Below are positions 15,591 through 57,262 of a DNA stretch of 60,403 nucleotides, one piece after another. Every line of letters begins with the position of its first letter. Positions within the stretch are counted from its first letter, which is position 1. Source of the stretch: Firmicutes bacterium CAG:582. GTDB lineage: Bacteria; Bacillota_I; Bacilli_A; RF39; UBA660. The notes beneath the pieces are model-generated. The model was not told where the DNA came from, searched no databases, and was given only the letters and a program-made list of their open reading frames with translations. The translations under genes and the position numbers were made by a program. The stretch spans positions 17,920 through 78,322 of the forward strand of contig FR884157.1 in the NCBI GenBank assembly GCA_000435515.1, given 5' to 3'.

Positions 15591-15618
15591 AAAAAATACC
15601 AGATTACGCTGGTATTAT
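15591..15618. repeat. 28-bp direct repeat, copy 2 (true amidase stop codon plus terminator)
   Basis: aaaaaataccagattacGctggtattat overlaps the amidase stop at 15604-15606. On the minus strand the hairpin is followed by a T-run. Confidence 0.85.
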
Positions 15619-16362: not shown

Positions 16363-16384
16363 AGGCAATAATCAAAGTGTAACG
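16363..16384. repeat. left terminal inverted repeat / att half-sites
   Basis: aggcaataatcaAAgtgtaacg is the reverse complement of 29111-29131 except for the central AA/TT. Confidence 0.85.
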
Positions 16385-16389
16385 TTTTG

Positions 16390-17241
16390 CTATTTTTTTG
16401 ATAAATTCATTATATAATTTCCAACTACTTCTTTATTTTCATTTATCTCTTGTTGTAAATTCGACCAATCATTTTTCAGTTTTTCTACTTCATCTTTATA
16501 TTTATCTGTAAAGTGTTCATTAATTTCCCAATGAAGGTAATCTTTATATTTATTAGTATAATCTTCTGTTAACTTATTTTTATCTACCCTAGAACATAAT
16601 AGTGTAAATCCCATGAATATACAAAAGGCATCTATATGGTCTTTATTATCATTAGTTAAATATATTAAAGATGAATATATTAATATTTCTAAAAAATAAG
16701 CAATTAGATAAAAATATAAAGCAAATAAATCTTCATCATTATTTTTATTAACTTCTATCATCATACTAACTACAATTGAACTATGTGTATACAAACATAA
16801 CTTTTCATAAGTTTCTTCTAATAATGATTGTAATTCATCATCCTCAAATTCTTCAAATAAAACTGGATTAATTTCTTTTAATTTAGATTTAAAATTATTT
16901 AATATTGCTGTAGGACGAGTATTTTTGCTTTTACCACATTTTTCTAAATTTTTAAATTCTTCAAATGTCTCTGTTGGGTCAAAAAATATCATCATTGCCA
17001 TCATTATTTTTTCCATACACGAACGCATCAATGTTGCAGAATCCACTAAGTCTTTTTTTCTTAAAAGTTTATAAACATTATTAATTGTATTATTAGCTTG
17101 TTGTAATAGATTAATTGTTTCAATACTAACATCTTCTGTAACCGATAAATTCTTCAGATATTTCTTTATATATCTTCTCATTGGTTTTACAAAATTAGTC
17201 TTTACTAATTGTTCAACAAATATCATATTCTTTTCTTCCAT
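16390..17241 (-). CDS. hypothetical helical protein (283 aa), downstream of the recombinase
   Basis: ORF with a good SD (aggggga-N5-ATG). No motif recognised. Confidence 0.5.
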   Translation of the reverse strand: MEEKNMIFVEQLVKTNFVKPMRRYIKKYLKNLSVTEDVSIETINLLQQANNTINNVYKLLRKKDLVDSATLMRSCMEKIMMAMMIFFDPTETFEEFKNLEKCGKSKNTRPTAILNNFKSKLKEINPVLFEEFEDDELQSLLEETYEKLCLYTHSSIVVSMMIEVNKNNDEDLFALYFYLIAYFLEILIYSSLIYLTNDNKDHIDAFCIFMGFTLLCSRVDKNKLTEDYTNKYKDYLHWEINEHFTDKYKDEVEKLKNDWSNLQQEINENKEVVGNYIMNLSKK

Positions 17242-17306
17242 TTTGTTCCCCCTATAAGTAGTTTATCTATTTCTATGTTTTCCTTGTTCCAATAGGAACA
17301 AAGTTT

Positions 17307-18896
17307 TTAAATATTATTTAATATACTAAATTTGTAAATTATTTCAATATTTTTATCTTTATCTATTACTATTTTATCAATGATAGCTTGCATTAATTCC
17401 CTAGTTGGATTTTCTAAGTCAATTAATGCTTCTATTTTATCCTCATATTTTTTTACATCATCTGTCTTATTTTGCATATCCTTTTCATCTGCCTTTAACT
17501 TCTTTATTTCAGTCCTTGATTTAGTTAACAATACTTCAGTTTCATTAGCTATTCTTTTATACATCTCATCTGATACTAATCCTCTAAACTTATCTTCATA
17601 TAGCATATCTAATTTATTAAGAAGATCTTTTTCTTTTTTTTCTAAATCAAATATTCTTGCTTCTATTTTAAGATTATTTTTCTTTCTATCTTTTAATTCA
17701 AGTGCAAGATTTGGTACATTAATCGCTTCCAAATACTTTTTACATGTGTTTTTAATAACTTCTAGTAATGCTTCTTCTAATTTATCATAAGGCATAAAAT
17801 GTGGATAACATAAATGTCTTCTTGGATCTCTTGAATACTTATTACAATTAATTGTCCAATAATCATGATTCTTTCTATAAGTAATAGTTAGTGTATTGCT
17901 GCATTCCTTACAATATAATAGATTTTCAAATAATCTTTTTTCTCTTTTAGTTATATTAGTAATATTGGTTCTTTTAACATTTCCTTGTATTTTTTCAAAA
18001 ATCATTCTATCTACAAGAGGTTCATGAGTATTTTTAACTATAATCCAATTTTCTTTTGGAACGGCCAATTTCTTTTTAGTTTTATACCCTCTTTTATACT
18101 GAATATTTTGAACCATATCACCAACATACATTTGATTTTTAAGTATCTTTTTAACAGAAGATATTGTCCAAATAGAATTATATTTACTCCTTGCGCGAGG
18201 ATTTTTTCTTTTGAGACTACTTGGTGTTTTAATTTTACTATCATTTAAATAAGTAGTTATTTCTGATAAACCAACTCCATCATTAGCCATTTCAAATATT
18301 TTCTTAACCACAGGTGCATATTCAGGATCTGGTAGTAAGTGTCCTTTATCATTAGGATCTCTCATATATCCATAACTTGGAGCACTACCAATAAATTTTC
18401 CTTTTCTTTTTTTATATTCTAATACATTTCTAATTTTAACTGAATTTTGTTTACTATAAAAATCATTACATGCAAATATAAACATTACAGAATCATTACT
18501 TGATTTTAATTTAAAATTATCATAACTTTCTTGTATAGATATAAATCTTATACCATTTTCAGGAAAATAATTTTCAACATAATAACCTGTTAGTATATGA
18601 TCTCTTCCTAATCTTGATAAATCTTTAACTATTACAAGATTTATGAGTCCTTTTTTCAAATCTTCCATCATTAGATTAAATCCCGGTCTATCAAAATCAG
18701 TACCAGAATAGCCATCATCAACATATTCTCCTACAAAGATAAAACCATTGTCCTTTACGAATTTCATTAGCATATTTCTTTGATTAAGGACACTCTCACT
18801 TTCTGATTCGTAAGATTTTCCTTGATCGGCTTCAGATAATCTTATATATATTCCTGCTTTGTAAAACTCTGGTGCTTTTACTGTATTGTTATACAT
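17307..18896 (-). CDS. large serine recombinase (integrase)
   Basis: Resolvase-type N-terminus AGIYIRLSEADQ, DGYSGTDFDRPGF and VKDLSRLGRD. It also has a recombinase domain, a Cys-rich zinc ribbon (CKECSN...NCNKY...C) and a C-terminal coiled coil. 529 aa; SD aaggag. Confidence 0.9.
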   Translation of the reverse strand: MYNNTVKAPEFYKAGIYIRLSEADQGKSYESESESVLNQRNMLMKFVKDNGFIFVGEYVDDGYSGTDFDRPGFNLMMEDLKKGLINLVIVKDLSRLGRDHILTGYYVENYFPENGIRFISIQESYDNFKLKSSNDSVMFIFACNDFYSKQNSVKIRNVLEYKKRKGKFIGSAPSYGYMRDPNDKGHLLPDPEYAPVVKKIFEMANDGVGLSEITTYLNDSKIKTPSSLKRKNPRARSKYNSIWTISSVKKILKNQMYVGDMVQNIQYKRGYKTKKKLAVPKENWIIVKNTHEPLVDRMIFEKIQGNVKRTNITNITKREKRLFENLLYCKECSNTLTITYRKNHDYWTINCNKYSRDPRRHLCYPHFMPYDKLEEALLEVIKNTCKKYLEAINVPNLALELKDRKKNNLKIEARIFDLEKKEKDLLNKLDMLYEDKFRGLVSDEMYKRIANETEVLLTKSRTEIKKLKADEKDMQNKTDDVKKYEDKIEALIDLENPTRELMQAIIDKIVIDKDKNIEIIYKFSILNNI

Positions 18897-19106
18897 TTAT
18901 ACTCCTTTCTTCTTGTATAACAAATTAAAGCCAATTATATTGTACCATAAAGAACAATATAACACCATTGTTCTACTCATTATCCATCACTCTTTTTATA
19001 TAATTAGTTATCAACAAGGTCAAATTAGGAGAATCTTTTTTAAATGTTTCTATTATATTAAACATAAGTCACCTCTTTATAGTGTATGACTTTGTTAAAC
19101 AATTAA

Positions 19107-19619
19107 TTATTCATCTCCTTTTGTTATTTCATTTATTAATGCTTCTAATTTTTTAATTTCCTCTTCACTCATAGGTTCTGGTACTGTAGGTTTACCATTC
19201 CAAGATATGATATTACCTTTATCATCATATTCTATAACAGGACCTATATTTTTTCTTATATTATTATTTTTATTATATTGTTTAAAGTTTTCTTGAATAC
19301 TAGTATTAAGATTTTCTTGTATATCCGATATTCTTTTTTTGAATGCCTCTGATATTTTAATTTTTCTTTTTTCTTTCTTAATGTGCTTTACAACAATATA
19401 ACCATATTTAGATAAACTACTTATACTCTTTGATATTGTTTGTTTACTAACACCAAATCTCTCACTAAAATACTCATTAGTAGCCCAACAATATCACATT
19501 TTCTTGCAAAGTGACAAAATATAAATTAATAGTAATCTTTCAAGTGGTGTTAAATTCTTATCTCCCAATAAACTTGTTGGAAAAACTAATTTAATAAAAG
19601 GTTCAATATCTCTTTCCAT
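19107..19619 (-). pseudogene. winged-HTH (HTH_36 / replication-initiator-like) gene interrupted by one in-frame TGA
   Basis: My own translation gives MERDIEPF...LTPLERLLLIYILSLCKKM-TGA-YCWATNEYFSERFGVSKQTISKSISSLSKYGYIVV... The frame is 171 codons long with a stop at codon 42 (19494-19496). Confidence 0.55.
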
Positions 19620-19875
19620 ATTCATTGATATAAGATTACCTTAATAGTCTATTATTTGTCAGTCTTTTAGAGCATAAGAAAAAGAACTGAACAAAGAATA
19701 GTACAGCAATTCTAGAAATACACTAGTACTTCCCTTTAATTTTGGCACTTCATTCTTGTTAAGTTCTTATTGAGAACATTGCATAAACTTCCTTTAATAA
19801 AGTCGACTTTTTCGAGCACACTCGTTGTGCCCTAATTTAATTATAGCAAATTTTTGCAAAAATTTCAATCTTTGC

Positions 19876-21297
19876 CTAAATTGAAGATGGAGATTTTTTT
19901 ATTGTTCCATCAATTTCTATGATTGAACAATTAGAAATATTAGTTTTCTTTTCTTTGTAAAATCTTTCAATTGAATTTCCGTTATCAATCTTGACTATTA
20001 CATAAAATGAGTATGTTGATTCATATCTTTTAATATATATTGGAAGTTGCTTATCATACCCATGAATTAAATTGTTTTTGCTTAATTTAAATTCAATTAA
20101 AATCTTTTCTTTCATATTGTAAATCACAAATTCTATTTGCCCATTACCAACCTTTGGTTCAAATGAATAATCATATAGTTTTAGTTGCTTTGCTACCTCT
20201 AACACTATAATAAATAATCTATGACTTGTAACTTCTTTTCTAACATTACGCCTCTTTGTCTTTGAATCGATATAATAAAGTTCCTCATTTAAGCCTAAAT
20301 CTTCTAGACATCTCTTATAAACAAATAATAATTTATTTACAAATTCCTGTAATGAATTAGATGATTTTGTTAATTCTATAAAAACTTTTTTTTGTTCTAA
20401 TACCTTTTCTCTTATTACTTCTAGGTTATTTACAATCCCTAATGGGTCATGGGAATAATCATATATTTCTGCTTCTTTCATGTTTCCCTCATAAAGTAAT
20501 TGTTCCAATAATTCCTTATTTCCTAATAAGCATTCACGCATTTTTTCTTTTTTAGTTTCATTTATAGCCGAAATATTGATATATGCTGTATTAAAAAACT
20601 CACATAAATACTCTTTGATTTTTTGATTGTATTCAGATATTGATTGTATATCATAACCATTTAAAACATCGGGTATTTCACTTAATAAATCTGCTGGTAA
20701 TAAAAATAGTAATTTGCCACTTGGCCTTTTTAAATACTTTAATCCTGTTTCATAATTTATATAATAATCTTTTATACACAATTTTTCTATCATATTGTTT
20801 GAATATAAGCATAAATCATCATATATTATTCTACATATCATATCGCTTATTCTATCAACACCAATATTTTCTTGAACTAAAAATAATAATCTATACATAG
20901 TTGGATCATCAATATCTTGATTAACTATTTCCTTCAAAGTTAACAAACATTTTTCAGCTGTTTTTCCAGTTAAACCATTGCCGTCAGTTGATTTCATACT
21001 TGTACCCAGCCCAATACCACTTGGTTCCGGAAAGTTAAAATGCTTTTTAACTGCTTTCCAATACAAATCATTACAATTCGTTTTTTTCAATAGATTTATG
21101 GTTGTTTGATAATGTTCTATAATTTTTTGCTTAGAATTTTTAAATTCAGGTATATTACATTCTGACAATAATTTTGGGTTTAAGAATAATGGAGTATCAA
21201 AATATACTAACGAATCCAAAACACCTAATTTTTCAAATATTTCAGATTTAATATTATAATAATCACTTATTTTTATTAATAGACTATCCTTATTCAT
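19876..21297 (-). CDS. PD-(D/E)xK nuclease-domain protein with QxxxY motif (RecB/Cas4/DUF4263 Shedu-like C-terminus), novel N-terminal region
   Basis: The C-terminal ~90 aa read FEPKVGNGQIEFVIY...ILIEFKLS...DKQLPIY, matching the E/D...ExK...QxxxY pattern. Strong SD aggagg. 473 aa. Confidence 0.55.
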   Translation of the reverse strand: MNKDSLLIKISDYYNIKSEIFEKLGVLDSLVYFDTPLFLNPKLLSECNIPEFKNSKQKIIEHYQTTINLLKKTNCNDLYWKAVKKHFNFPEPSGIGLGTSMKSTDGNGLTGKTAEKCLLTLKEIVNQDIDDPTMYRLLFLVQENIGVDRISDMICRIIYDDLCLYSNNMIEKLCIKDYYINYETGLKYLKRPSGKLLFLLPADLLSEIPDVLNGYDIQSISEYNQKIKEYLCEFFNTAYINISAINETKKEKMRECLLGNKELLEQLLYEGNMKEAEIYDYSHDPLGIVNNLEVIREKVLEQKKVFIELTKSSNSLQEFVNKLLFVYKRCLEDLGLNEELYYIDSKTKRRNVRKEVTSHRLFIIVLEVAKQLKLYDYSFEPKVGNGQIEFVIYNMKEKILIEFKLSKNNLIHGYDKQLPIYIKRYESTYSFYVIVKIDNGNSIERFYKEKKTNISNCSIIEIDGTIKKSPSSI

Positions 21298-21323
21298 AAA
21301 ACTCCTCCTAATATAACATATAC

Positions 21324-22835
21324 TTATAAAACATTATTACTTTCAAATAATTCTTGTCTCTTTGATAAAAACGTTTTAGTTCTAGGTGTTAATACTTCAT
21401 CTGGCAATTTATCATTATATGTTATTAGATCAAAAAACATTTTGCTTTCTTCAGTTGCATCCAATTTGATAAGAATCTTTCCATCTTTTGAATCAAAACA
21501 ATAATAGTTACTATCAAATAAACCATGATGGTTACTACATAGCCAAACTCCATTATCTCCAGAATTTGCAAGAACGTATTTTTTGTAAAATGATTCATTA
21601 CAATGTTCATTATTCTTATCAATTAAATCTTTCATTTCAGGTTTTGATATTATAGCATTAATTTCCCCAGATGCTGTATTTTTTATATCACCTACTCCCC
21701 ACAAGTGTGCAGCCTCAAGAATATGTTCAATTTCACATCCACATAAATAACACTTAGTTTGAATACCTTTTTGCCTAATATTATTCTTAAACAATTCTTG
21801 ATTTCTTAGAATATTATTACTTTTTGCCTTTTCATACTGATTTTTTTCTCTTTCAAATTGATGCAATATTTCTTCAGATGTCTCGTAGTGTATATCCAAA
21901 TTTGCTTTTTCAATTAACTTTAATATTGGGCCAGTAAAGCCAGTTGATTGTTTATAATTTTCTTTACCATCACTAAGATTATATAGTTGTGTCCCGAATA
22001 AAAATTCTAAATCTTTATTCTCTTTTTTTGCAAGTATAATTAATGTCCACATCGTAAAGAAACTATCATAACCTTCTGCAGATAATGTTTTAAAAGTATA
22101 AATATATTTTTGATTAGGAATAATATGTACTCCATCTTCATCTATTTCATCTTTTGTAATATCATAGTTTTCATCAATACATTTTAAATATGAAGGTACA
22201 TTTCCAATATTCTTCTTTGATAAATACAATATATCATTTGCAAATTTATTAAATGAGATATATTTAATATCATCATGTGTTTCTTCCATACTAAAACCTA
22301 ATTGTTCATATTCTTTAAATGATATTTCATCAAGATTTAATATATCAAATCCAATAGTCGCTAACTTTCTATAATTCATAAGATTAGACAAATTTTTAGC
22401 ATAAGTTGTATTTGTATCTAATAAATAAAAATATAATTTAACATCTTTAGCGCTATTTTTAACATCATAATAATATTCAAAAACCTTATTTAATCCCTGA
22501 AATAAATATGTATTAGAATGATAACCATCTTTGCCATACACATACTTTCCACCTACTGTTTCTACTTCTTTCTTTTTATCTTCATCAAAGTTAGTATTTG
22601 AAAATCCTATAATATATTTTAATTTATCATTCTCAAAAACAGATATTGTTCTATTATGTTTATCAACAGATCTTTGAGCTTGTATAGTGGCACCTGGTAA
22701 TTCTTCAATCGAAATCTTAATTTTGTCAGGATCAATATCGACATTATCTTTTTTATATGCCCTTTTTATAGCGTCTTTATAAAATTTTTTATAAGTCGCA
22801 TAATTACAATTAAATATTTTAGCAACTATTTCCAT
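21324..22835 (-). CDS. HNH-type restriction endonuclease (probable type IIS R subunit)
   Basis: The C-terminal CYLCGCEIEHILEAAHLWGV....NGVWLCSNHHGLFD matches the HNH_2-type motif of restriction enzymes. The large N-terminal region is presumed to be the recognition domain. I moved the start to the ATG preceded by ggagg; the ORF track begins 12 nt upstream. Confidence 0.7.
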   Translation of the reverse strand: MEIVAKIFNCNYATYKKFYKDAIKRAYKKDNVDIDPDKIKISIEELPGATIQAQRSVDKHNRTISVFENDKLKYIIGFSNTNFDEDKKKEVETVGGKYVYGKDGYHSNTYLFQGLNKVFEYYYDVKNSAKDVKLYFYLLDTNTTYAKNLSNLMNYRKLATIGFDILNLDEISFKEYEQLGFSMEETHDDIKYISFNKFANDILYLSKKNIGNVPSYLKCIDENYDITKDEIDEDGVHIIPNQKYIYTFKTLSAEGYDSFFTMWTLIILAKKENKDLEFLFGTQLYNLSDGKENYKQSTGFTGPILKLIEKANLDIHYETSEEILHQFEREKNQYEKAKSNNILRNQELFKNNIRQKGIQTKCYLCGCEIEHILEAAHLWGVGDIKNTASGEINAIISKPEMKDLIDKNNEHCNESFYKKYVLANSGDNGVWLCSNHHGLFDSNYYCFDSKDGKILIKLDATEESKMFFDLITYNDKLPDEVLTPRTKTFLSKRQELFESNNVL

Positions 22836-22847
22836 AACTACCTCCAC

Positions 22848-24725
22848 CTAATAATTTATCACTATTATCTCTTGTCTATCTTGCCTATTTCTCAATGTCA
22901 TTTTGTCATTTTTTATTACTGTATATCCATTGTCTTTAATCCATTTTTTTAAATGTTGATTTTCTATCGAATTCCTTGTCATCATATTAGATAGCATAAA
23001 TTTTATACCTCTTTTATGAAGTCTAGTTAAAAACTCCAATAATTCTTTTTCTTGTGTTTCATCCCAACCATTAAATCCTCTTTTGCCATCGTTGTAAGCC
23101 CCACATGAATTCAAATAAGGTGGATCGCAGTATACAAAATCACCCTTTTCTATATCTTTTTCAAATCTTTTATAATCCATTGATTTGAATACTATATTCA
23201 TGCTTTTTGCTTTAATAGAATACGAAACTAGCTTTTCTAACATCTCTTGATTATATCCTGAATTTCCACATGGATTGTTAAATTCCATTTTATTATTAAA
23301 TCTTATTTGATGTTCAAAACCATAACATATTAATAAATATAAATCCAAAGGATTTCTTGAACCTTTTTCCAAAGAATTATACTTATCTCTAAACAAGTTG
23401 TATGCTTCCTTATTCTTTTTTTCTAAACCATATTTTTTTATAGTTTTTTCTATGTAATTATAAGTTGTAAAAAATTGGTCATGTGCTATCTTTTCAAGTA
23501 AATCCCTAACAACCCAATTAATGTCATTATATACAACTTTATCAGCTTTAGCATTTATTGAAACTGTTCCGCCACCACCAAACAAATCATAGAAAGTGCT
23601 AATTTTTTTAGGAAAGTTGTTTTTCAATAAAGGAAGAACATCCCATTTTCCTCCTATATAATTCAATGGTGAAATATAATTTGTATCAAAATCTTTTTCT
23701 ATATAAAATAACCATTCATAATGTTCTTTATTTTTTGTGTTGTTTTTAATTTCTCTATTTACTGCACGAGTACTTTTATATTTTACAAAATTAATTTTTT
23801 TAAATTCGTAGGTACCTTCCTTTGCATATCTTTTTAAAACTTTTTCAATATATTCTTTTGACATAATCCCTGCATCACTGTAGCTAAAAATAATATGTTT
23901 AAAATTAGCATTAGCTATCAACTTTTCAAATTCTTCATGAACATAACCTTTTTTACACCATTTTGATATTTGATTTCCATTATCTCTATGTGCACCTACA
24001 CCATGAGTTTTAGGGTTATCATTTTTTGCAATTGTTTCAAGAACATGATACTGACTAATATATTGAGTTGGTGTATATGGCGGATCTAAATATAAAATAT
24101 CCCCACTTATTTTAGTTATTAAATCATTAACATCTTCAATATATACTTCATTTTGATACTTTGCATTTGGTAATGATTCTAATGGAATAAATTCCATCCT
24201 TTTTACTGATCTTGGATCCCAAATTTTTAGGAAGGCTGAATAAACACCTGCTACATTTGAAACTTTACTAACACTTTCTAATAAACTTCCTATTAAATAA
24301 TACTTTTCATATTCGTTTATTTTCTTCTCATCAAACCATACATCTATTGTATTTCTGATAAAATCAATCATTTTAGCATTTTCATCAGAAAAATATTGTC
24401 TTCCTGAAATAGTTGGTGCAAAATTATTATAGCAAAAACCTGAAACATAATTCGATGTATCTATATTATTAAAATAATCAAATGGATCAAAACCTAATTC
24501 TCTGAAAAAATCTTTATTATATTTTAACTTTCCGTTAGATATTACGTATGAAAAATATAATGTATCATTTGCTAAAATTTCAAATCTATCTTTAAAATAA
24601 TCTCCTACAGCACAAGTCCCGGAAAACAAGTCACAAAAAACTGCTCCTTTTTTGCCAATTTTTTTTTGATTAATCAATTTTTCTAATTTATCTAATAATT
24701 TTGCTTTATTGCCAATATATCTCAT
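22848..24725 (-). CDS. tandem two-domain N6-adenine DNA methyltransferase (Dam/D12 class x2, FokI-methylase-like)
   Basis: Two complete sets of Dam motifs are present: RYIGNKAKLL / FCDLFSGTCAVG / LYLDPPY, and NYIGGKWDVL / FYDLFGGGGTVS / VYCDPPY. I placed the start at the ATG after ggagg. Confidence 0.85.
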   Translation of the reverse strand: MRYIGNKAKLLDKLEKLINQKKIGKKGAVFCDLFSGTCAVGDYFKDRFEILANDTLYFSYVISNGKLKYNKDFFRELGFDPFDYFNNIDTSNYVSGFCYNNFAPTISGRQYFSDENAKMIDFIRNTIDVWFDEKKINEYEKYYLIGSLLESVSKVSNVAGVYSAFLKIWDPRSVKRMEFIPLESLPNAKYQNEVYIEDVNDLITKISGDILYLDPPYTPTQYISQYHVLETIAKNDNPKTHGVGAHRDNGNQISKWCKKGYVHEEFEKLIANANFKHIIFSYSDAGIMSKEYIEKVLKRYAKEGTYEFKKINFVKYKSTRAVNREIKNNTKNKEHYEWLFYIEKDFDTNYISPLNYIGGKWDVLPLLKNNFPKKISTFYDLFGGGGTVSINAKADKVVYNDINWVVRDLLEKIAHDQFFTTYNYIEKTIKKYGLEKKNKEAYNLFRDKYNSLEKGSRNPLDLYLLICYGFEHQIRFNNKMEFNNPCGNSGYNQEMLEKLVSYSIKAKSMNIVFKSMDYKRFEKDIEKGDFVYCDPPYLNSCGAYNDGKRGFNGWDETQEKELLEFLTRLHKRGIKFMLSNMMTRNSIENQHLKKWIKDNGYTVIKNDKMTLRNRQDRQEIIVINY

Positions 24726-24753
24726 AACTTCCTCCACTACTTGTTTTTATTGT

Positions 24754-25590
24754 TTAAAATAACTCTTTTACAATTAAATCTTGTGAATGTAAATTATTAT
24801 TTTTACCTAATAATAAATTTTCATAAAATTTAACTAAGTAACTACTTTCTTCTTTTATATTTAAATAATTATTAAAATAATTACTTCTAACTAATGCATT
24901 TCTAAAATATACTGATTTATCTTTAAATAAAGTATTATCTACTTCATATCCTAAATTAATTAAATATTTTTCAATAAATAATGCTGTAGTTCTAGTATTA
25001 CCTTCTCTAAATGGATGTACTTGCCATATACTAGATGAAAACTTAGTAATATTGTTTATTACTTCTACAACACTCATATCTTTATAATTTTTTTCTTTTT
25101 CTAAAGATATATCATATTCTAATGATTCTTTTAATGTCTTACAATCACCATAAGCTACTGAATCATTATTAAGTATTTTTTCATGTTTAGAAAAATCTAT
25201 ATTTCTAAATTCTCCTGCAAACTCATAAACATCTTGAAATAAATATTTATGAATGTATTTTAAATAATCTACAGATAATTCAAAATTATCAATTTGTAAT
25301 AATTCAACAATTCTCGTTGCTACAAAATCACATTCTAATTCATTATGATTTAATTCTTGTTTTTTATCTTTTTCTATATAATATTCTCTTAATTCTTCCT
25401 CTACTTGTTTAATAGTTAAATTACCACTTACATTTTCTTCTAATAATTTTTCTAAATATTTAGAAGGTTTTAAATTATCAACTTCTTGAAGGCCTATAGC
25501 CATATCCCATTCTAGTTGTTTTACATATCCTTCTGGTTTAATTTCTTCAATATAATCAATATTACTTGAATCCAATTCTTTTTCACTCAT
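24754..25590 (-). CDS. Fic-domain protein with N-terminal VbhA-like segment and degenerate active-site motif
   Basis: HPFREGNTRTTA compares with the canonical HxFx(D/E)GNGRxxR. The N-terminal AIGLQEVDNLKPS..L..L....SGNLT resembles the VbhA antitoxin helix (..RLEGLEP..). Confidence 0.75.
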   Translation of the reverse strand: MSEKELDSSNIDYIEEIKPEGYVKQLEWDMAIGLQEVDNLKPSKYLEKLLEENVSGNLTIKQVEEELREYYIEKDKKQELNHNELECDFVATRIVELLQIDNFELSVDYLKYIHKYLFQDVYEFAGEFRNIDFSKHEKILNNDSVAYGDCKTLKESLEYDISLEKEKNYKDMSVVEVINNITKFSSSIWQVHPFREGNTRTTALFIEKYLINLGYEVDNTLFKDKSVYFRNALVRSNYFNNYLNIKEESSYLVKFYENLLLGKNNNLHSQDLIVKELF

Positions 25591-25594
25591 TTAA

Positions 25595-25900
25595 TTAATC
25601 CCCTATCTTTTCAATATACTTTATTATCACATACTGCCTAATCATTGCCTCTAAAGTACATAACGTATCGTATTGGTTACTACTTATTTCATCATTTGGT
25701 TTAGTATAATAATTAGCAACTTCTATTTTTTCTCTATATTTATTAATAGTGTCAATAATAAACTTTTGAATTTCATCACTTGTTGTTTTGTTAGTCAACA
25801 AATAGTTTTTATATTTATTAATTTTACTTAACTCTTCAAAAATTTCCTTTTTATCTTTTTCATCATTTATACAATCCAAAAAATTCATATTGTCACTCAT
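25595..25900 (-). CDS. small acidic helical protein (101 aa), between the AbiEi-like and Fic genes
   Basis: This ORF overlaps the upstream gene by 8 nt and ends 4 nt before the Fic start. No (S/T)xxxE(G/N) motif was found. Confidence 0.5.
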   Translation of the reverse strand: MSDNMNFLDCINDEKDKKEIFEELSKINKYKNYLLTNKTTSDEIQKFIIDTINKYREKIEVANYYTKPNDEISSNQYDTLCTLEAMIRQYVIIKYIEKIGD

Positions 25901-26501
25901 ATCTTACTGCATAATCTACTAAAGTTCTAACTTTTTCATATATATTAAACACTTTAGAATACTCTAGTAATTTATCTATATCTTTATCACTACTATTAAA
26001 ATAATCGTGTAATATATTATTTTGTAATTCTAAGTCAAAATCATCACTCTTTAAAATATCACAAATACATCTTTCTGCATTATATACTTTAATTGGATTA
26101 TTAAACATATTATTAATTTCTTTAATTCCAATATTATAATATTTATCTGCGACATAGTGCACTTTATAATTACTTAATACTCTTTTCTTACTATTAACAG
26201 TTATTTCTATTTCTTCTTGCAATTCATTTATTAAACCTAGCATACTTAATGCTGTCTTATATGAATATATCGCATCAGGATATCTTTTTTGAAAAACATA
26301 TTCGTCATCAACTAATATATTGCTATCAATATATAAACCATGTGAAACTTTATTTATTAAACCATTATCAACATATTTTTTTATTAATGGTTTACTAATA
26401 TTTAGCTTTAAAAAATCTGATGTAGATATATATCCATGATTAGCATCTAAAAACTGTTTAATTTTATCTTCATTAGTCATAGAATCACCATTTACTTTCA
26501 T
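25893..26501 (-). CDS. AbiEi-like (type IV TA antitoxin / wHTH regulator family) protein
   Basis: GYISTSDFLKL......KKYVDNGLINKVSHGLYID and AERCICDILKS. It is a paralogue of 14892-15515. The true start may be the internal ATG at 26480. Confidence 0.65.
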   Translation of the reverse strand: MKVNGDSMTNEDKIKQFLDANHGYISTSDFLKLNISKPLIKKYVDNGLINKVSHGLYIDSNILVDDEYVFQKRYPDAIYSYKTALSMLGLINELQEEIEITVNSKKRVLSNYKVHYVADKYYNIGIKEINNMFNNPIKVYNAERCICDILKSDDFDLELQNNILHDYFNSSDKDIDKLLEYSKVFNIYEKVRTLVDYAVRYE

Positions 26502-26845
26502 AACAATATTATATCATTTTATTATATTTGAGTAAATAAAATTTACACAATAAAAATAATAAATTTTCAGTAACTGTCAGATACTAATTATATGGGTCTT
26601 AGGATACTCCCTAACAAGCATTAAAGGGTGTGTCAACACCATGCTTGATATATTGTACAAGACTAGTAAGTTACCTCTTGTAAGTGGTGTAATTTTTTTA
26701 TTTTTTCTCAATGTTTTTTTCAAAAAATACTATTAATTTTTATAAAAAATAGCCACCAAATTTAACAAAATCCCATAAAAAAATGCAAAAACATTAAATA
26801 TAATTAATCAAATATTTTCGCATTTTCTTTAAAACAGGTAAATTT

Positions 26846-27127
26846 TTATTTTCTAGGCAAGCTTAATAAATTATCCGATGTTGTAGTATTAGGTGTACTT
26901 TTAACATACTTTTCACCGTTAGAACTTATTGCAGGTATTACATATGGACCATAATTTGATCCTACAGTAATACTTTTAGGATTCGACTTTACATAATCAT
27001 GAATAATAGCTTTTTTATACCATCCATCTTTACTATTAGAAAGATATATTTGATCAATTTCTAGCAAGCTATTTGAATATGCACATCCATTTTTCATTTT
27101 AATTGCTGTTGCAATAAAAGTAGACAT
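26846..27127 (-). CDS. DUF3892 domain protein
   Basis: The C-terminal ...GEKYVKSTPNTTTSDNLLSLP matches the DUF3892 hallmark (..NLLSLP). I placed the start at the ATG preceded by aaaggagg; the ORF track extends 11 codons further upstream. Confidence 0.65.
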   Translation of the reverse strand: MSTFIATAIKMKNGCAYSNSLLEIDQIYLSNSKDGWYKKAIIHDYVKSNPKSITVGSNYGPYVIPAISSNGEKYVKSTPNTTTSDNLLSLPRK

Positions 27128-27202
27128 ATTTCCTCCTTTCTGTTTCTTCAAATGTTGCACTTTGAGATAAAATATGCTACAATTACTACAGGTGTCGGGC
27201 CT

Positions 27203-27233
27203 ATAGTTTCACATTCACTGAAACTATTTTTTT
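27203..27233 (+). terminator. strong hairpin plus T-run on the plus strand, inside the DUF3892 5' leader region
   Basis: atagtttca-cattcac-tgaaactat (9-bp stem) followed by tttttt. No plus-strand gene lies upstream. Confidence 0.45.
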
Positions 27234-27404
27234 ATACAAGAACTCATATACGTAAAATACTTCTCAAATACCCTTGTATGCATTCATTATATATCAATAT
27301 GCATATTTTGTCAAGTTTCAAGTCATTTCTAACTAGCAAAATATATTTTTGAATACACATTTACATTTATTTAAAATATTGTTAGTCTTTTTTGACCAAT
27401 AATA

Positions 27405-27433
27405 TTGACTTTTGTAGCAGAAGATTATATAAT
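27405..27433 (+). promoter_or_regulatory. sigma-A-type promoter of the ATPase gene
   Basis: TTGACT, 17 nt, TATAAT, then SD gaggtg 5 nt before the ATG at 27451. Confidence 0.6.
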
Positions 27434-27450
27434 TATTTTGAGGTGTAATT

Positions 27451-28686
27451 ATGCTTTTAAATATTAAGATAGACAACTATAAAGGTGTAAGTAATAATAT
27501 TAATATTTCTTGTATTGCATCAAATAAAATTAAACATTCTAATAATGATATTTCGAAAATTTCTGAAAAAACAAAGATATTAAAAAATATATGCATAATT
27601 GGTAGTAACGCAAGTGGTAAAACAAGTATATTAAATGCTATAGAAACTGTGCAAGATTTTCTTTTGTTTCCTCATAGGAAAAGCATTTCGAATAACAAAG
27701 ATTTTGATAGTTTTATAAAAAGAATGACACCAGAAGAATTAAAAAAATTTTTAATAGATATAAATACTTTAAAGCTTGGAGAACAAAATAATCTTCGTTC
27801 TAAAGATAAAAGCACTATAGTTTTAGAATTATTTATACCAAAAAGAAAAAATAATATTTCAGGTATATATACTTATACATTAATGTACAAAAGCAATTAT
27901 AAGGAATCCGGCGTTTTATTAGAAAAATTAGAGTATAAAAAAAATTTTGACAGTAAGAAAAATGAAGTTATCTGTTTAGCAAATAATATTATTGAAAGTG
28001 AAATAACTACTACTTTGTTATACCAAAACAACAATAGTAAAAATCAAGAAAAAAATATTGATGATAGAATTAAGTATTATAATACATTTTTTAATGAAAT
28101 GATAAAGCATGTATCGTATTTGGATGGTAGTGAAGGTGTAGATTTGCTTGAAGCCTTTAATAAACATGGTAATAAGTTTGTTGAACTATGTAACATTGCA
28201 GATGATAAAATAATTGATATTACACTTGATGAAAATGAAAAAAAACCAAAAATCTTATTTTGGAATTCAAAAAAAACTTTCTTAACTTTTCCTCAATTAT
28301 CAAACGGAACTAGAAAAATATTAGTTATAGGATCTATTATTCTAGATGCATTAGAAAAAAATAATTTATTGCTTATTGATGAAATAGAATTAAGCCTTCA
28401 CCCAACACTAGTAAATTTTTTAATAAATTTAAATTCTTCAAAGGATTTTAATCATTTTTCTCAATTGATATTTACAACACATTCTCCATTTGTTGCCTTT
28501 TCTATGACAAATGATCAATTATATTATATTAATAATAAAAATAACAATTATTATATATCTAGTATAAGTAACGCTATAAAAAACAATATAATTACAAAAG
28601 ATAAAAATCCTGAAAAAGCTTGGATTGAAGATTTGTTAATTAAAAATCCCGATTTAAATAAAATAAAACATTTTTTAAATAATTAA
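27451..28686 (+). CDS. ABC/SMC-like AAA ATPase (AAA_21-type, defence-island type)
   Basis: Walker A GSNASGKTS, signature-like LSNGTRK, Walker B LLLIDEIELSLHP and FTTHSP. 411 aa. Confidence 0.8.
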   Translation: MLLNIKIDNYKGVSNNINISCIASNKIKHSNNDISKISEKTKILKNICIIGSNASGKTSILNAIETVQDFLLFPHRKSISNNKDFDSFIKRMTPEELKKFLIDINTLKLGEQNNLRSKDKSTIVLELFIPKRKNNISGIYTYTLMYKSNYKESGVLLEKLEYKKNFDSKKNEVICLANNIIESEITTTLLYQNNNSKNQEKNIDDRIKYYNTFFNEMIKHVSYLDGSEGVDLLEAFNKHGNKFVELCNIADDKIIDITLDENEKKPKILFWNSKKTFLTFPQLSNGTRKILVIGSIILDALEKNNLLLIDEIELSLHPTLVNFLINLNSSKDFNHFSQLIFTTHSPFVAFSMTNDQLYYINNKNNNYYISSISNAIKNNIITKDKNPEKAWIEDLLIKNPDLNKIKHFLNN

Positions 28687-28688
28687 TA

Positions 28689-28720
28689 AAAAGATTCAGT
28701 TTAGTTTGAATCTTTTTTTG
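28689..28720. terminator. bidirectional intrinsic terminator
   Basis: aagattca-gtttagtt-tgaatctt, flanked by an A-run and a T-run. Confidence 0.6.
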
Positions 28721-28721
28721 T

Positions 28722-29072
28722 TTAATAATATTTTTCCAGTTTTAATGGATTTCTACCAGTGATTTTTAGATTATATTTTATATTTAATATCTTTTCTATG
28801 GATGGAATTATAATATCAATATCGCATCTACAATTAAAAATATCTACTGCAGAATTAATATGATTATATAGTTTACTATCATCTAAGCATCCTCTTGAAT
28901 AACTATTTGCAATATAAAATGCTACTGCATCTGGTATTACATATCTAATTATATACTCTTCAAAATTATCATAGAAAGGTAAATACTTTTCTTGAAATTC
29001 TTCATCAGATATATTTCCTTCTTCCATTAATTCTTTTTCTTTTGTGTAACTCATATTATAACTAATCTCCAT
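28722..29072 (-). CDS. hypothetical protein (116 aa) at the right end of the element
   Basis: ORF only; acidic N-terminus. It starts 39 nt inside the right inverted repeat. Confidence 0.4.
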   Translation of the reverse strand: MEISYNMSYTKEKELMEEGNISDEEFQEKYLPFYDNFEEYIIRYVIPDAVAFYIANSYSRGCLDDSKLYNHINSAVDIFNCRCDIDIIIPSIEKILNIKYNLKITGRNPLKLEKYY

Positions 29073-29110
29073 TTCTTACTATATTTTTGGCTTTAATTGT
29101 TATACATAGT

Positions 29111-29131
29111 CGTTACACAATGATTATTGCC
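29111..29131. repeat. right terminal inverted repeat / att half-sites
   Basis: cgttacacAAtgattattgcc is the reverse complement of 16364-16384 except for the central dinucleotide. Confidence 0.85.
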
Positions 29132-29395
29132 TCCTCCTGCATTTATGTGATTAGACACAACAATAACATTACTATCATTTCCAAAAGCATTCTTAATTCT
29201 ATTGACTCTTTGAGTTGGACTCAATGTTTCATCTATTTCTCTTGTAATATAAACAGGTATTCCAAGTCTTTTTAACTCATCATACATTATTTTGCTAATT
29301 GCTAAAGTCATATTTTTTTCAATTATATCATTTCCACTTGCACCATTATCAGTACCACCATGACCAGGGTCAATTATAATCTTATAATTATTCAT
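29130..29395 (-). pseudogene. N-terminal fragment of N-acetylmuramoyl-L-alanine amidase (Amidase_3)
   Basis: MNNYKIIIDPGHGGTDNGASGN..EK...L........LGIPVYITR..D..LS...R.......NVIVVSNHINAGGG, then 7 element-derived codons and a stop. SD aggtga. Confidence 0.85.
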
Positions 29396-29418
29396 AGTAT
29401 CACCTAAAATAGTGTATG

Positions 29419-29459
29419 AAAAAAAATGAAATATGGCACTTTTCATATTTCATTTTTTA
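29419..29459. terminator. bidirectional intrinsic terminator between the HEPN-like gene and the amidase start
   Basis: 10-bp stem atgaaatatg / catatttcat, flanked by A7 and T6. Confidence 0.6.
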
Positions 29460-57050: not shown

Positions 57051-57262
57051 CAAAAAAAGCCATGACTTAAGGACGGATAAATCCGTGGTACCACCTTAAT
57101 TCATGACTTATAATCATCTCAATATTTCTTAACGCGAAATCACGGTTTATGCTCCTGTGTTGAAATTCATAATACAACCTTATTTAAGATACTTTCAGCC
57201 GATGATATCCACTCTCTAAAAATGTATTATATTATTACTTGACGCACATTCATCGCATCACT
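57051..57262 (-). promoter_or_regulatory. T-box riboswitch leader of pheST
   Basis: The minus strand carries an AGAGAG box, a possible UUC(A) specifier (plus-strand gaa at 57162-57164), the T-box core aaGGTGGTACCACG (57084-57095), and a terminator helix gtcatgaattaagg/ccttaagtcatg followed by T7. Confidence 0.8.

What the first reader, a model, noticed from the sequence alone, without database searches (positions are those of the whole stretch)
24754..26501. AbiEi-like regulator coupled to a Fic protein with degenerate catalytic and auto-inhibitory motifs
Seen in sequence:
- The Fic motif reads H-P-F-R-E-G-N-T-R-T-T-A, whereas the canonical form is HxFx(D/E)GNGRxxR. The second Gly is replaced by Thr and the final Arg by Ala.
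- The N-terminal segment AIGLQEVDNLKPS...SGNLT parallels the VbhA antitoxin helix (..SQRLEGLEP..). It keeps the Glu but lacks both the S/T and the G/N of (S/T)xxxE(G/N).

Established knowledge:
- Deviations in this loop accompany changed chemistry. Doc is a kinase and AnkX is a phosphocholinase.
- The inhibitory Glu blocks ATP positioning.
- AbiEi normally partners AbiEii, a GTP-dependent nucleotidyltransferase toxin.

Inference: one nucleotidyl-transfer toxin family appears to have been replaced by another under the same antitoxin/regulator family. The 101-aa protein is a possible third component.
Basis: partly seen in the sequence, partly recalled or inferred. Interest (0 to 1): 0.65.

Follow-up and report, generated by a model that had tools for sequence, protein, structure and literature searches.

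The report
Orphan AbiEi upstream of Fic2-type Fic
The Fic gene belongs to a large, conserved and partly studied family (Campylobacter fetus Fic2 type) and sits in a mobile defence island just behind an AbiEi regulator that has lost its usual toxin. This gene order occurs in one lineage only and is not a general new toxin-antitoxin type.

Summary
The sequence observation holds, with one correction.

**Fic motif.** The Fic protein (24754-25590, minus strand) reads HPFREGNTRTTA. This is not decay. HxFx(E/D)GNTR(T/A)xA is near-invariant across a large family.
- PADLOC already lists the family as candidate PDC-S72.
- It includes Campylobacter fetus Fic2 (HPFREGNTRTIA). That protein is published as a toxin that needs its catalytic His and disturbs ribosomes; its chemistry is unknown.

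**N-terminal domain.** The inhibitory-Glu position holds a near-invariant Asp (D38). The G/N position is kept (N39). The S/T position is Leu (L34).

**AbiEi.** The upstream gene is a full-length AbiEi with no AbiEii anywhere in the 60-kb window. AbiEi and Fic are both under purifying selection. In every sampled locus where Fic is at least 88% identical, the two genes are 11-12 nt apart.

**The pairing is lineage-specific.**
- About 70 other family loci lack AbiEi. These include orthologues of 73-86% identity, one of which uses the same promoter.
- One relative carries AbiEi-AbiEii-Fic.

**The small ORF.** It is a real gene of 97 aa, but it is a rare indel. A distant homologue sits next to neither AbiEi nor Fic.

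**Best reading.** Fic is a self-contained Fic2-type effector and a core gene of a roughly 12.7-kb serine-recombinase defence island. The orphan AbiEi most likely acts as repressor of the shared promoter.

The parts
24754..25590 (-). Fic2-type Fic protein, 278 aa: a VbhA-like N-terminal domain fused to a Fic core. It lacks the C-terminal wHTH domain (Pfam Fic-like_C or HTH_24) found in three longer family members tested.
   Evidence: Pfam Fic, E 3.4e-12. PADLOC PDC-S72, E 1.7e-80. 42% identical to C. fetus Fic2 over residues 16-264, E 1e-59. AF2 pLDDT 94.9. Foldseek best matches are Bep/VbhT/FicT. dN/dS 0.04-0.10. Longer members carry Fic-like_C or HTH_24.
24982..25017 (-). Fic active-site motif H192-P-F-R-E-G-N-T-R-T-T-A203.
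   Evidence: Read directly from the sequence. Family conservation: T199 in 134/135 and A203 in 122/135 representatives. Same motif as published for Fic2, HPFREGNTRTIA.
25381..25527 (-). VbhA-like N-terminal domain (residues 22-70). The alpha-inh-equivalent motif L34-Q-E-V-D38-N39 lies at 25474-25491.
   Evidence: 16 of 36 family segments hit Pfam VbhA. hhalign register against annotated VbhA proteins. Split VbhA + Fic version on a Kurthia plasmid. Column conservation.
25595..25888 (-). Predicted three-helix protein. It is a rare indel between AbiEi and Fic.
   Evidence: Seven homologue clusters only. Lies between AbiEi and Fic in L009-L011 and L096-L103. Absent from most AbiEi-Fic loci. dN/dS 0.25-0.33. 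A 47%-identical homologue sits in a YhcG/NUDIX context. AF2 pLDDT 79.5 with no fold match.
25893..26501 (-). Orphan AbiEi: wHTH N-terminal domain plus C-terminal domain. The probable true start is the ATG at 26480 (195 aa).
   Evidence: PDB 6Y8Q and 9HLO, E about 1e-23, full length. PADLOC AbiEi, E 8.4e-54. dN/dS 0.08-0.29, with both domains constrained. No AbiEii in the window. Start inferred from the promoter position and from homologues.
26508..26536 (-). Sigma-70-like promoter: TTTACT, 17-nt spacer, TG-extended TATAAT. It is conserved in AbiEi-containing loci and also in the AbiEi-less locus L015.
   Evidence: Promoter scan. Alignment of eight loci. L015 sequence.
26519..26559 (.). Candidate AbiEi operator: imperfect inverted repeat of 19-nt arms with a 3-nt spacer, overlapping the -35 element. 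Not statistically supported.
   Evidence: Repeat search. 49 of 300 shuffles score as well. Geometry resembles the published abiE IR1/IR2 (23-nt arms, N3 spacer; PMC3985639). The left arm is missing in L015.
19876..24725 (-). Co-oriented downstream cargo, tightly spaced after Fic: a fused double D12 adenine methyltransferase (22848-24725), an HNH-domain protein (21324-22847) and a DUF8370/DUF8371 protein (19876-21297). In relatives this cargo is replaced by type I, type III or type ISP R-M, or by MazG-like/AIPR/helicase.
   Evidence: Pfam and PADLOC. Cargo variation. No terminator-like site between 21000 and 27500.
16369..29092 (-). Integrated element of about 12.7 kb that carries the module. 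It holds a large serine recombinase (17307-18896), a DUF5677 gene (16390-17241), a disrupted HTH_36 gene (19110-19625), a conserved 116-aa gene (28722-29072) and left cargo (AAA_21 ATPase 27451-28686 on the plus strand; DUF3892 26846-27160).
   Evidence: An Amidase_3-LysM gene is split into an N-terminal part at 29093-29446 (profile positions 1-91) and a C-terminal part at 15604-16368 (positions 83-172 plus LysM). Junction half-sites. The same backbone with other cargo appears.

Best explanation
**What it is.** The Fic gene is a member of the Fic2 / PDC-S72 family. This is a widespread Fic lineage with three linked features:
- a VbhA-type regulatory domain fused to the N-terminus;
- Asp in place of the inhibitory Glu;
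- an active-site loop reading HxFx(E/D)GNTR(T/A)xA, which lacks the second Arg that normally pairs with that Glu.

**How Fic works (inferred).** It is most likely an active enzyme that depends on its catalytic His. When unleashed it would be toxic by hitting translation or ribosome assembly, as shown for C. fetus Fic2. Its chemistry differs from canonical AMPylation and is unknown. It does not need a separate antitoxin at native expression.

**Where it sits (shown).** In this genome Fic is a core gene of a roughly 12.7-kb element that carries a large serine recombinase and is inserted in an amidase gene. Defence cargo is swapped on both sides of Fic.

**AbiEi (history and role inferred).** AbiEi is the surviving half of an AbiE module that sat just upstream; AbiEii was lost. 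It is retained as an autorepressor of the promoter that now also transcribes Fic and the downstream R-M cluster. The published finding that the AbiEi C-terminal domain is needed for repression would explain why both of its domains stay constrained here.

**The 97-aa gene.** It is an occasional passenger, not a component of the module.

**Shown versus inferred.** Shown: family membership, motif conservation, gene order, selection, and the lineage restriction of the pairing. Inferred: Fic activity and target, repression by AbiEi, and co-transcription.
For: **Family membership and conservation**
- 311 clusters (at 50% identity) with E below 1e-30. More than 598 species-representative genomes carry H[PA]FxEGNTR[TA].
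- Identity with C. fetus Fic2. Fic2's published properties are His184-dependent toxicity, filamentation and fewer 70S ribosomes (PMC5651007).

**VbhA-like cis domain**
-, plus the split form on a Kurthia plasmid.

**Fic works without AbiEi**
- neighbours are heterogeneous defence genes.
- L015 has the same promoter and no AbiEi.
- median dN/dS 0.19 among Fic orthologues without AbiEi.

**AbiEi is an orphan of an AbiE module**
- AbiEi identity; no AbiEii in the window.
- L045 has AbiEi-AbiEii-Fic with a homologous promoter.

**AbiEi is still functional**
- dN/dS 0.05-0.35 in both domains.
- Its C-terminal domain is reported as necessary for repression (PMC3985639).

**Operon-like layout**
- The three genes are separated by 4-nt gaps in the window. 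In relatives that lack the small gene, AbiEi and Fic are 12 nt apart with a GGAGG RBS.
- No terminator-like site was predicted.

**Element context**
-.
Against: - No expression or binding data exist.
- The inverted repeat at the -35 element is no better than chance in this AT-rich DNA.
- C. fetus Fic2 does need a partner (Fic1 or Fti3) when overexpressed. A neutralising role for AbiEi therefore cannot be excluded.
- The pair stays together across dS of about 0.8-1.0, with AbiEi at 65% and Fic at 88-94% amino-acid identity. That is longer than a decaying remnant would be expected to last.
- A Kurthia plasmid has an orphan AbiEi-like DUF6088 gene next to a split GNTR-type Fic. This hints at a second, independent association.
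- The direction of the AbiEi indel relative to L015 (gain or loss) is not resolved.
Confidence: 0.55

Rival explanations
1. AbiEi and Fic form a hybrid toxin-antitoxin or abortive-infection pair. AbiEi both represses the operon and neutralises the Fic toxin, which has taken the place of AbiEii.
For: - Tight coupling of the two genes and an invariable order in every sampled locus where Fic is at least 88% identical.
- Both AbiEi domains are under purifying selection without AbiEii.
- Fic2-type proteins are toxic and are neutralised by the product of the upstream gene in C. fetus.
- An orphan AbiEi-like DUF6088 gene lies beside a GNTR-type Fic on a Kurthia plasmid.
Against: - Close Fic orthologues (73-86% identical) lack AbiEi and are still constrained.
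- L015 expresses Fic from the same promoter without AbiEi.
- L045 has AbiEi-AbiEii-Fic together.
- There is no recurrent AbiEi association across 72 sampled neighbourhoods.
- Fic carries its own VbhA-like cis domain.
Confidence: 0.2
2. AbiEi is kept as an orphan 'anti-addiction' antitoxin that protects the host or element against AbiEii toxins brought in by other mobile elements. Its position next to Fic is incidental linkage within a cargo hotspot.
For: - The C-terminal domain, which in S. agalactiae is sufficient for toxin neutralisation (PMC3985639), is strongly constrained.
- AbiE modules occur in related islands (L037, L045).
- The upstream slot is a cargo hotspot.
Against: - Constraint on the C-terminal domain is equally explained by its role in repression.
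- The promoter-AbiEi-Fic unit is inherited as one block while cargo on both sides changes.
- No AbiEii is present in the window to be neutralised.
Confidence: 0.12
3. The Fic protein is an inactive pseudo-enzyme or a decaying gene, because it lacks the second Gly and the last Arg of the AMPylation motif.
For: It deviates from HxFx(D/E)GNGRxxR at two positions that contact the nucleotide phosphates (plus established knowledge of Fic enzymes).
Against: - The variant residues are themselves near-invariant across phyla.
- dN/dS is 0.04-0.19.
- The catalytic His, the Mg-binding Glu, the Asn and the first Arg are invariant or nearly so.
- C. fetus Fic2, with the same motif, is toxic in a His184-dependent way.
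Confidence: 0.04
4. The 97/101-aa protein is an obligatory third component, such as an adaptor or a second antitoxin, of an AbiEi-X-Fic system.
For: - It always lies between AbiEi and Fic in the element family.
- It is under purifying selection.
- Small Fti-type inhibitors of Fic toxins exist in C. fetus.
Against: - It is absent from the great majority of AbiEi-Fic loci.
- The indel is flanked by an 8-nt direct repeat, AAGATA(T/G)G.
- A distant homologue sits between a YhcG nuclease and a NUDIX gene.
- It shows no similarity to AbiEii, to plasmid-encoded proteins or to known folds.
Confidence: 0.05

Closest known systems
Campylobacter fetus subsp. venerealis Fic2, the toxin of the Fic1-Fic2 module (Sprenger et al. 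2017, PMC5651007)
   Same: - Same active-site variant: HPFREGNTRTIA versus HPFREGNTRTTA.
- 42% identical over residues 16-264, including the N-terminal GL..VD.LKPS domain.
- The catalytic His is at an equivalent position (184 versus 192).
   Different: - The upstream partner in C. fetus is a class II Fic (Fic1), which overlaps fic2 by 1 bp. Here it is AbiEi.
- Fic2 is 306 aa.
- The authors classed Fic2 as lacking an inhibitory motif. The VbhA-like domain with Asp was not described in the passages I read.
- Toxicity and target have not been tested for the window protein.
PADLOC phage-defence candidate PDC-S72 (single-gene candidate, PADLOC-DB v2)
   Same: Matches the model at E 1.7e-80 over profile positions 8-271. 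Like the candidate, the gene sits in defence islands without a fixed partner.
   Different: - The model is 377 positions long. The window protein lacks the C-terminal wHTH part, which shows as Fic-like_C in two and as HTH_24/HTH_11 in one of the three long members tested.
- No paper in the searched library mentions PDC-S72, so I found no experimental support for a defence role.
VbhA/VbhT and FicA/FicT class I Fic toxin-antitoxin modules
   Same: - Nearest solved structures and sequences.
- The N-terminal domain is homologous to VbhA.
- A split VbhA + Fic version of this family exists.
   Different: - The antitoxin is fused in cis.
- The inhibitory Glu is Asp.
- GNGRxxR is GNTRxxA.
- The known targets of those toxins (GyrB/ParE AMPylation) are not established for this family.
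AbiE (AbiEi/AbiEii) type IV toxin-antitoxin / abortive-infection system (Dy et al. 2014, PMC3985639; structure 6Y8Q)
   Same: - AbiEi is a full-length homologue.
- The promoter-proximal position and the candidate inverted repeat at the -35 element resemble the abiE layout.
   Different: - No AbiEii (DUF1814 nucleotidyltransferase) is present in 60 kb.
- The gene downstream is a Fic.
- The operator is not statistically supported.
Gene-interrupting integrative elements with large serine recombinases. The resemblance to the Bacillus skin / SpoIVCA-type intervening elements is recalled from memory, not tested.
   Same: The element is bounded by the two halves of a split host gene (Amidase_3-LysM). 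It carries a large serine recombinase, and its junctions have palindromic half-sites.
   Different: - The cargo is anti-phage defence genes.
- Excision and restoration of the amidase gene were not shown. My reconstruction of the rejoined site did not restore the reading frame.

Membership tests
Fic/Fido superfamily (Pfam PF02661) | Fic fold with the catalytic His in an HxFx(D/E)GN loop | tested here: met
   Pfam E 3.4e-12. AF2 pLDDT 94.9 and Foldseek matches to Bep/VbhT/FicT. H192, F194, E196, G197 and N198 are present and conserved.
Canonical AMPylating Fic enzymes | Complete HxFx(D/E)GNGRxxR motif (second Gly and second Arg) | tested here: not met
   T199 and A203. The substitutions are family-wide.
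Canonical AMPylating Fic enzymes | Inhibitory helix motif (S/T)xxxE(G/N), in cis or in trans | tested here: not met
   The equivalent positions read L34xxxD38N39 in the profile-derived register. Only the G/N position is kept.
C. fetus Fic2-type / PADLOC PDC-S72 family | HPFxEGNTRTxA loop and full-length homology, including the N-terminal GLQxVD(G/N)LxPS domain | tested here: met
C. fetus Fic2-type / PADLOC PDC-S72 family | Toxicity dependent on the catalytic His; interference with ribosome subunit joining or biogenesis | not testable with these tools
   Known only for C. fetus Fic2 (PMC5651007).
C. fetus Fic2-type / PADLOC PDC-S72 family | Upstream class II Fic (Fic1) acting as antitoxin | tested here: not met
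   The upstream genes here are the 97-aa gene and AbiEi. Pfam Fic is not among the 25 most frequent families found in the 72 upstream neighbours of family members.
AbiE type IV TA / Abi system | AbiEi antitoxin-regulator (wHTH N-terminal domain plus C-terminal domain) | tested here: met
   6Y8Q and 9HLO, E about 1e-23 over the full length. PADLOC AbiEi, E 8.4e-54.
AbiE type IV TA / Abi system | Adjacent AbiEii (DUF1814 GTP-binding nucleotidyltransferase) toxin in a bicistronic operon | tested here: not met
   No AbiEii in any frame of the window. The 97-aa protein is not an AbiEii remnant. AbiEii is present in the relatives L045 and L037.
AbiE type IV TA / Abi system | Negative autoregulation through inverted repeats in the promoter | tested here: inconclusive
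   An inverted repeat of 19-nt arms with a 3-nt spacer overlaps the -35 element, but 49 of 300 shuffles score as well. No binding data.
VbhA/VbhT-type class I Fic TA | VbhA-fold antitoxin encoded as a separate small gene upstream of the toxin | tested here: not met
   The VbhA-like domain is fused to the Fic core. A split form exists elsewhere, on a Kurthia plasmid.

The most novel reading that the evidence does not exclude
AbiEi has been exapted from an AbiE module to become the dedicated repressor and antitoxin of a Fic2-type toxin whose chemistry is not AMPylation. This would be a hybrid AbiE/Fic abortive-infection switch that also gates expression of the exchangeable R-M and defence cargo downstream, within a serine-recombinase defence island.
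Probability: 0.2. Interest if true: 0.6.

Novelty: new member of a known kind. Interest (0 to 1): 0.35.

Why it matters
The pairing itself is a local rearrangement and matters little. Two things are worth keeping.

**1. The Fic2 / PDC-S72 family is large and uncharacterised.**
- It has hundreds of clusters at 50% identity, spans several phyla, and sits in defence islands.
- Its chemistry and target are unknown.
- This analysis shows a linked triad: an Asp-type VbhA domain (fused or split), Thr for the second Gly, and Ala for the Glu-pairing Arg.
- That gives a concrete hypothesis to test: an altered co-substrate, or an altered way of regulating the enzyme.

**2. Fic is a fixed core gene of a small integrative element.**
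- Defence cargo is exchanged on both sides of it.
- The element is therefore a useful natural system for studying how defence islands are assembled and regulated.

Tried and rejected
- **The 97/101-aa ORF as a remnant of AbiEii.** BLASTP found no similarity. tblastn of two AbiEii proteins against the window gave only E above 1.
- **The small ORF as a known antitoxin or phage protein.**
  - No Pfam or NCBIfam hit.
  - Weak PADLOC PDC-M48B hit (1.4e-4) and weak PHROG hits only.
  - No plasmid homologue.
  - AF2 three-helix model has no Foldseek match.
- **A profile of the Fic N-terminal domain against PDB sequences.** No VbhA, BiaA or FicA hit. Homology had to be shown through Pfam hits of family members, hhalign and the split Kurthia form.
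- **A structured RNA in the conserved roughly 110-nt element upstream of the promoter.** No Rfam hit. Folding z-scores were -1.3 and -0.7.
- **The AbiEi operator.** The inverted repeat is not above chance.
- **Phage origin.** Only one phage record and three IMG/VR contigs carry a relative.
- **Literature.** The only paper with both AbiEi and Fic in its abstract treats them as separate systems. No paper mentions PDC-S72.
- **Restoring the amidase reading frame across the inferred att core.** This failed by one base, so I make no claim about excision.
Full report
**Anatomy**

Three co-oriented genes lie on the minus strand:
- AbiEi, 25893-26501 (202 aa as listed).
- A small ORF, 25595-25900 (101 aa as listed).
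- Fic, 24754-25590 (278 aa).

The small ORF is better started at the ATG at 25888 (97 aa), as in all homologues and gene calls. Then 4 nt separate AbiEi from the small gene, and 4 nt separate the small gene from Fic.

A fused double D12 adenine methyltransferase starts 28 nt after Fic. An HNH protein and a DUF8370/8371 protein follow. No terminator-like site is predicted between 21000 and 27500.

A sigma-70-like promoter (TTTACT, 17-nt spacer, TG-extended TATAAT) lies at 26508-26536. It ends 6 nt before the listed AbiEi ATG. The true AbiEi start is therefore probably the ATG at 26480, which is preceded by GGTGA. This matches the 195-aa homologue in L045 and the start of the alignment to the solved structures.

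**The Fic protein**

It is a Fic protein by three tests: Pfam, a confident AlphaFold2 model (pLDDT 94.9), and Foldseek, whose nearest solved structures are the class I toxins Bep, VbhT and FicT.

The word 'degenerate' is wrong, however.
- An exhaustive search of 1.84 billion representative proteins finds 311 clusters (at 50% identity) with E below 1e-30 that match over nearly the full length.
- In 135 of these, T199 is present in 134 and A203 in 122. His, Phe, Glu, Gly, Asn and the first Arg are invariant or nearly so.
They come from Bacilli, Clostridia, Bacteroidales, Alphaproteobacteria, Fusobacterium and others.

PADLOC already lists the family as the single-gene phage-defence candidate PDC-S72 (E 1.7e-80).

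**A characterised relative**

A full-text search for the motif string led to Sprenger et al. 2017 (PMC5651007). C. fetus subsp. venerealis Fic2 has HPFREGNTRTIA, and the authors describe the same G-to-T and R-to-A deviations. They report the following:
- Fic2 is toxic and causes filamentation in E. coli.
- The toxicity requires His184.
- Fic2 lowers 70S ribosomes and raises free subunits.
- It is neutralised by binding to the upstream Fic1, and also by Fti3 and Fic4.
- Its chemistry is unknown.

I recovered Fic2 from a C. fetus plasmid record. There, two tandem Fic genes overlap by 1 bp, the second is 306 aa, and its His is at position 184. The window protein is 42% identical to it over residues 16-264 (E 1e-59). 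The window protein is therefore a member of an already described, partly characterised family.

**The N-terminal domain**

- Sixteen of 36 family N-terminal segments hit Pfam VbhA, best E 4.9e-6. The window's own segment does not.
- A Kurthia plasmid carries the module split in two: an annotated VbhA-family gene (Pfam VbhA, E 4.7e-6; motif MAALDG) and a Fic reading HPYREGNTRAVS.
- hhalign of the family profile against annotated VbhA proteins, fetched from Bartonella and Xanthomonas plasmids, gives the register. VbhA S20xxxE24G25 aligns with L34xxxD38N39.

This pairwise hhalign result is weak on its own (E 1.2e-3, probability 19%). The register rests on it together with the conserved D-(G/N)-L-x-P signature.

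- The Glu said to be 'kept' (E36) is a variable column.
- The inhibitory-Glu position holds a near-invariant Asp (129/135).
- The G/N position is kept (G 99, N 20).
- The S/T position is a near-invariant Leu.

The Asp, the Thr and the loss of the Arg that normally pairs with the inhibitory Glu travel together, in both the fused and the split forms. That points to a co-adapted active site and regulator, not to decay. I could not inspect model coordinates, so the spatial relation of D38 to the active site is inferred.

Three longer family members were tested. Two carry a C-terminal Fic-like_C domain and one an HTH_24/HTH_11 wHTH; the window protein has neither.

**AbiEi**

The 202-aa protein is a full-length homologue of the solved AbiEi (6Y8Q) and AbiGI (9HLO), at E about 1e-23. 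It also matches PADLOC AbiEi models at 8.4e-54. Pfam AbiEi_4 falls just below its cut-off.

There is no AbiEii anywhere in the 60-kb window. AbiEi is nevertheless not decaying.
- dN/dS is 0.08-0.29 against relatives down to 65% amino-acid identity.
- The wHTH half and the C-terminal half are both constrained, with omega 0.05-0.35.

Dy et al. 2014 (PMC3985639) report that the AbiEi C-terminal domain is necessary for repression and sufficient for neutralising the toxin. Constraint on it therefore cannot tell a regulator-only role from an antitoxin role.

The same paper describes the abiE operator as two 23-nt inverted arms separated by 3 nt at the promoter. The window has 19-nt arms separated by 3 nt over the -35 element. 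In this 25% G+C DNA, 49 of 300 shuffles score as well. I treat the repeat as a candidate only.

**Are the genes co-conserved?**

Within the closest relatives, yes.
- All 20 places shown for three Fic alleles more than 95% identical to the window's (68 contigs read) have AbiEi 11-12 nt upstream of Fic (or separated from it only by the 97-aa gene), while the cargo on either side changes.
- So do L012 and L013, with Fic at 94% and 88% identity and AbiEi at only 65%.

Beyond that clade, no.
- Of the 80 species-representative loci, the roughly 30 with Fic at 70-86% identity, and all but two of the more distant ones, have no AbiEi within 6 kb.
- Their upstream genes include a D12 methylase, RhuM, AAA_14/DUF4143, a TIR protein, DUF6119 and a NACHT STAND protein.
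- Across 72 neighbourhoods, no family recurs in more than 3-4 loci.
- These Fic genes without AbiEi keep both motifs and have a median dN/dS of 0.19.
- L015 (84% identical Fic) retains the same promoter and the first codons of abiEi, then runs straight into Fic.

The two exceptions are informative.
- L045 (Fic 52% and AbiEi 55% identical) has AbiEi, AbiEii and Fic in a row. The usual overlap joins the first two genes, and the promoter is homologous.
- L037 has a separate AbiEi/AbiEii pair 1.6 kb upstream of Fic.

The parsimonious history is that an AbiE module sat in the cargo slot just upstream of Fic, and that AbiEii was lost in the window's lineage. This is 'loss of the toxin next to another toxin-like gene'. 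It is not a demonstrated functional swap.

**The small gene**

It is a real gene. It is intact at 77-86% identity in other elements, with dN/dS 0.25-0.33. AF2 predicts a three-helix protein (pLDDT 79.5) with no fold match.

It is rare.
- Only seven clusters exist in 5.8 billion proteins.
- The 202-aa AbiEi form linked to it is on 28 contigs. The 200-aa forms listed from the same cluster are on more than 550 contigs.

Relatives with the same left-hand cargo lack it. The indel is bracketed by the direct repeat AAGATA(T/G)G. A 47%-identical homologue lies between a YhcG-type nuclease and a NUDIX gene, with no AbiEi or Fic. It is a passenger, not a third component.

**Context**

The module lies in a roughly 12.7-kb insertion (16369-29092) that splits an Amidase_3-LysM gene.
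- The N-terminal part is at 29093-29446 (profile positions 1-91).
- The C-terminal part is at 15604-16368 (positions 83-172 plus three LysM repeats).
- The junctions carry palindromic half-sites: GGCAATAATCA / TGATTATTGCC on the host side and CGTTACAC / GTGTAACG on the element side.

The backbone shared with relatives is a 116-aa gene, Fic (with or without AbiEi), an HTH_36 gene, a 529-aa large serine recombinase and a DUF5677 gene. Defence cargo varies on both sides of Fic. Examples are Gabija-like OLD/UvrD, large unknown proteins, an AAA_21 ATPase, type I, II, III and ISP R-M systems, and MazG-like/AIPR/helicase sets. Hosts are uncultured low-G+C gut Bacilli.

**Mechanism: committed view**

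- Fic is a self-contained effector dependent on its catalytic His. Its fused Asp-type VbhA domain regulates it in cis.
- When activated it is expected to arrest growth through the translation apparatus, by analogy with Fic2. Its chemistry is probably not canonical AMPylation, because the residue that holds the gamma-phosphate and pairs with the inhibitory Glu is missing. This rests on established Fic enzymology and is an inference.
- AbiEi most likely survives as the repressor of the promoter that drives abiEi, fic and the downstream cargo.
- I put this view at 0.55. The hybrid TA model gets 0.2, an anti-addiction orphan antitoxin 0.12, and the pseudo-enzyme and three-component models 0.05 or less each.

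The main facts that keep the hybrid model alive are these:
- Fic2 needs a neutraliser when overexpressed.
- The AbiEi-Fic block has stayed together over dS of about 1.
- An orphan AbiEi-like DUF6088 gene lies beside the split GNTR-type Fic on the Kurthia plasmid.

**Novelty and limits**

Both proteins are members of known families. The motif variant is published, and the family is already a catalogued defence candidate. Three things appear to be new:
- The recognition of the Asp-type VbhA domain as part of the family signature.
- The lineage-specific AbiEi-Fic operon.
- The role of Fic as a fixed core gene of a small serine-recombinase defence island.

No expression, binding, toxicity or chemistry data were obtainable here. 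All functional statements about the window's proteins are inferences.

Noticed in passing
window 15604-16368 and 29093-29446, with the insertion at 16369-29092: An Amidase_3-LysM gene is split by the roughly 12.7-kb element. The junctions carry palindromic half-sites (GGCAATAATCA / TGATTATTGCC on the host side, CGTTACAC / GTGTAACG on the element side), consistent with serine-recombinase attL/attR. My rejoined site was out of frame by one base.
   Followed up: partly
window 19110-19625 (minus strand); stop codon at 19494-19496: The element's HTH_36 gene is 95% identical to intact 172-aa homologues. It has an in-frame TGA where relatives have a Gly codon, so it is a nonsense mutation or a sequencing error.
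   Followed up: yes
window about 26570-26690 (minus strand); also L001-L013, L015, L096-L107: A conserved element of about 110 nt, relatively G+C-rich (…ATCAAGCATGGTGTTGACACACCC…TCTGACAGTTA), lies between the left cargo and the abiEi/fic promoter. It is single-copy per locus and is in inverted orientation in L013. It has no Rfam match and no unusual folding energy.
   Followed up: partly
protein P0129 (metagenomic; 281 aa): This protein is 80% identical to the window Fic up to HPFREGN. It then switches to a canonical GNGRSTR loop and an unrelated C-terminal half. It is either a natural recombinant at the conserved motif or an assembly chimera.
   Followed up: partly
L095 (Kurthia sp. plasmid pYJ4A, NZ_CP126690) 1977-3539: A split version of the family: a stand-alone VbhA-family gene (motif MAALDG) plus a Fic reading HPYREGNTRAVS. 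Next to it, in convergent orientation, lies an orphan AbiEi-like DUF6088 gene with no AbiEii.
   Followed up: partly
window 27451-28686 (plus strand) and 26846-27160 (minus strand): The left cargo is an AAA_21 ATPase (PADLOC AbiLi, E 5.8e-40, and related PtuA/GajA-type models) with no adjacent partner gene that I could identify, plus a DUF3892 protein. The same pair occurs in relatives both with and without the 97-aa gene.
   Followed up: no
window 19876-24725 (minus strand): The right cargo is a fused double D12 adenine methyltransferase, a 503/507-aa HNH-domain protein and a 473-aa DUF8370/DUF8371 protein (PHROG 30194, E 1.8e-51). It looks like a type II R-M system with an extra gene of unknown role.
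   Followed up: no
L096 and L098, positions 1-1500: In some metagenomes a second large serine recombinase (with DUF4368) lies directly upstream of the amidase N-terminal fragment. This suggests that the amidase locus is a hotspot for several such elements.
   Followed up: no
window 57066-57262 (minus strand): A T-box leader (Rfam RF00230, 94.2 bits) lies upstream of a 349-aa ORF. This is ordinary chromosomal context.
   Followed up: no
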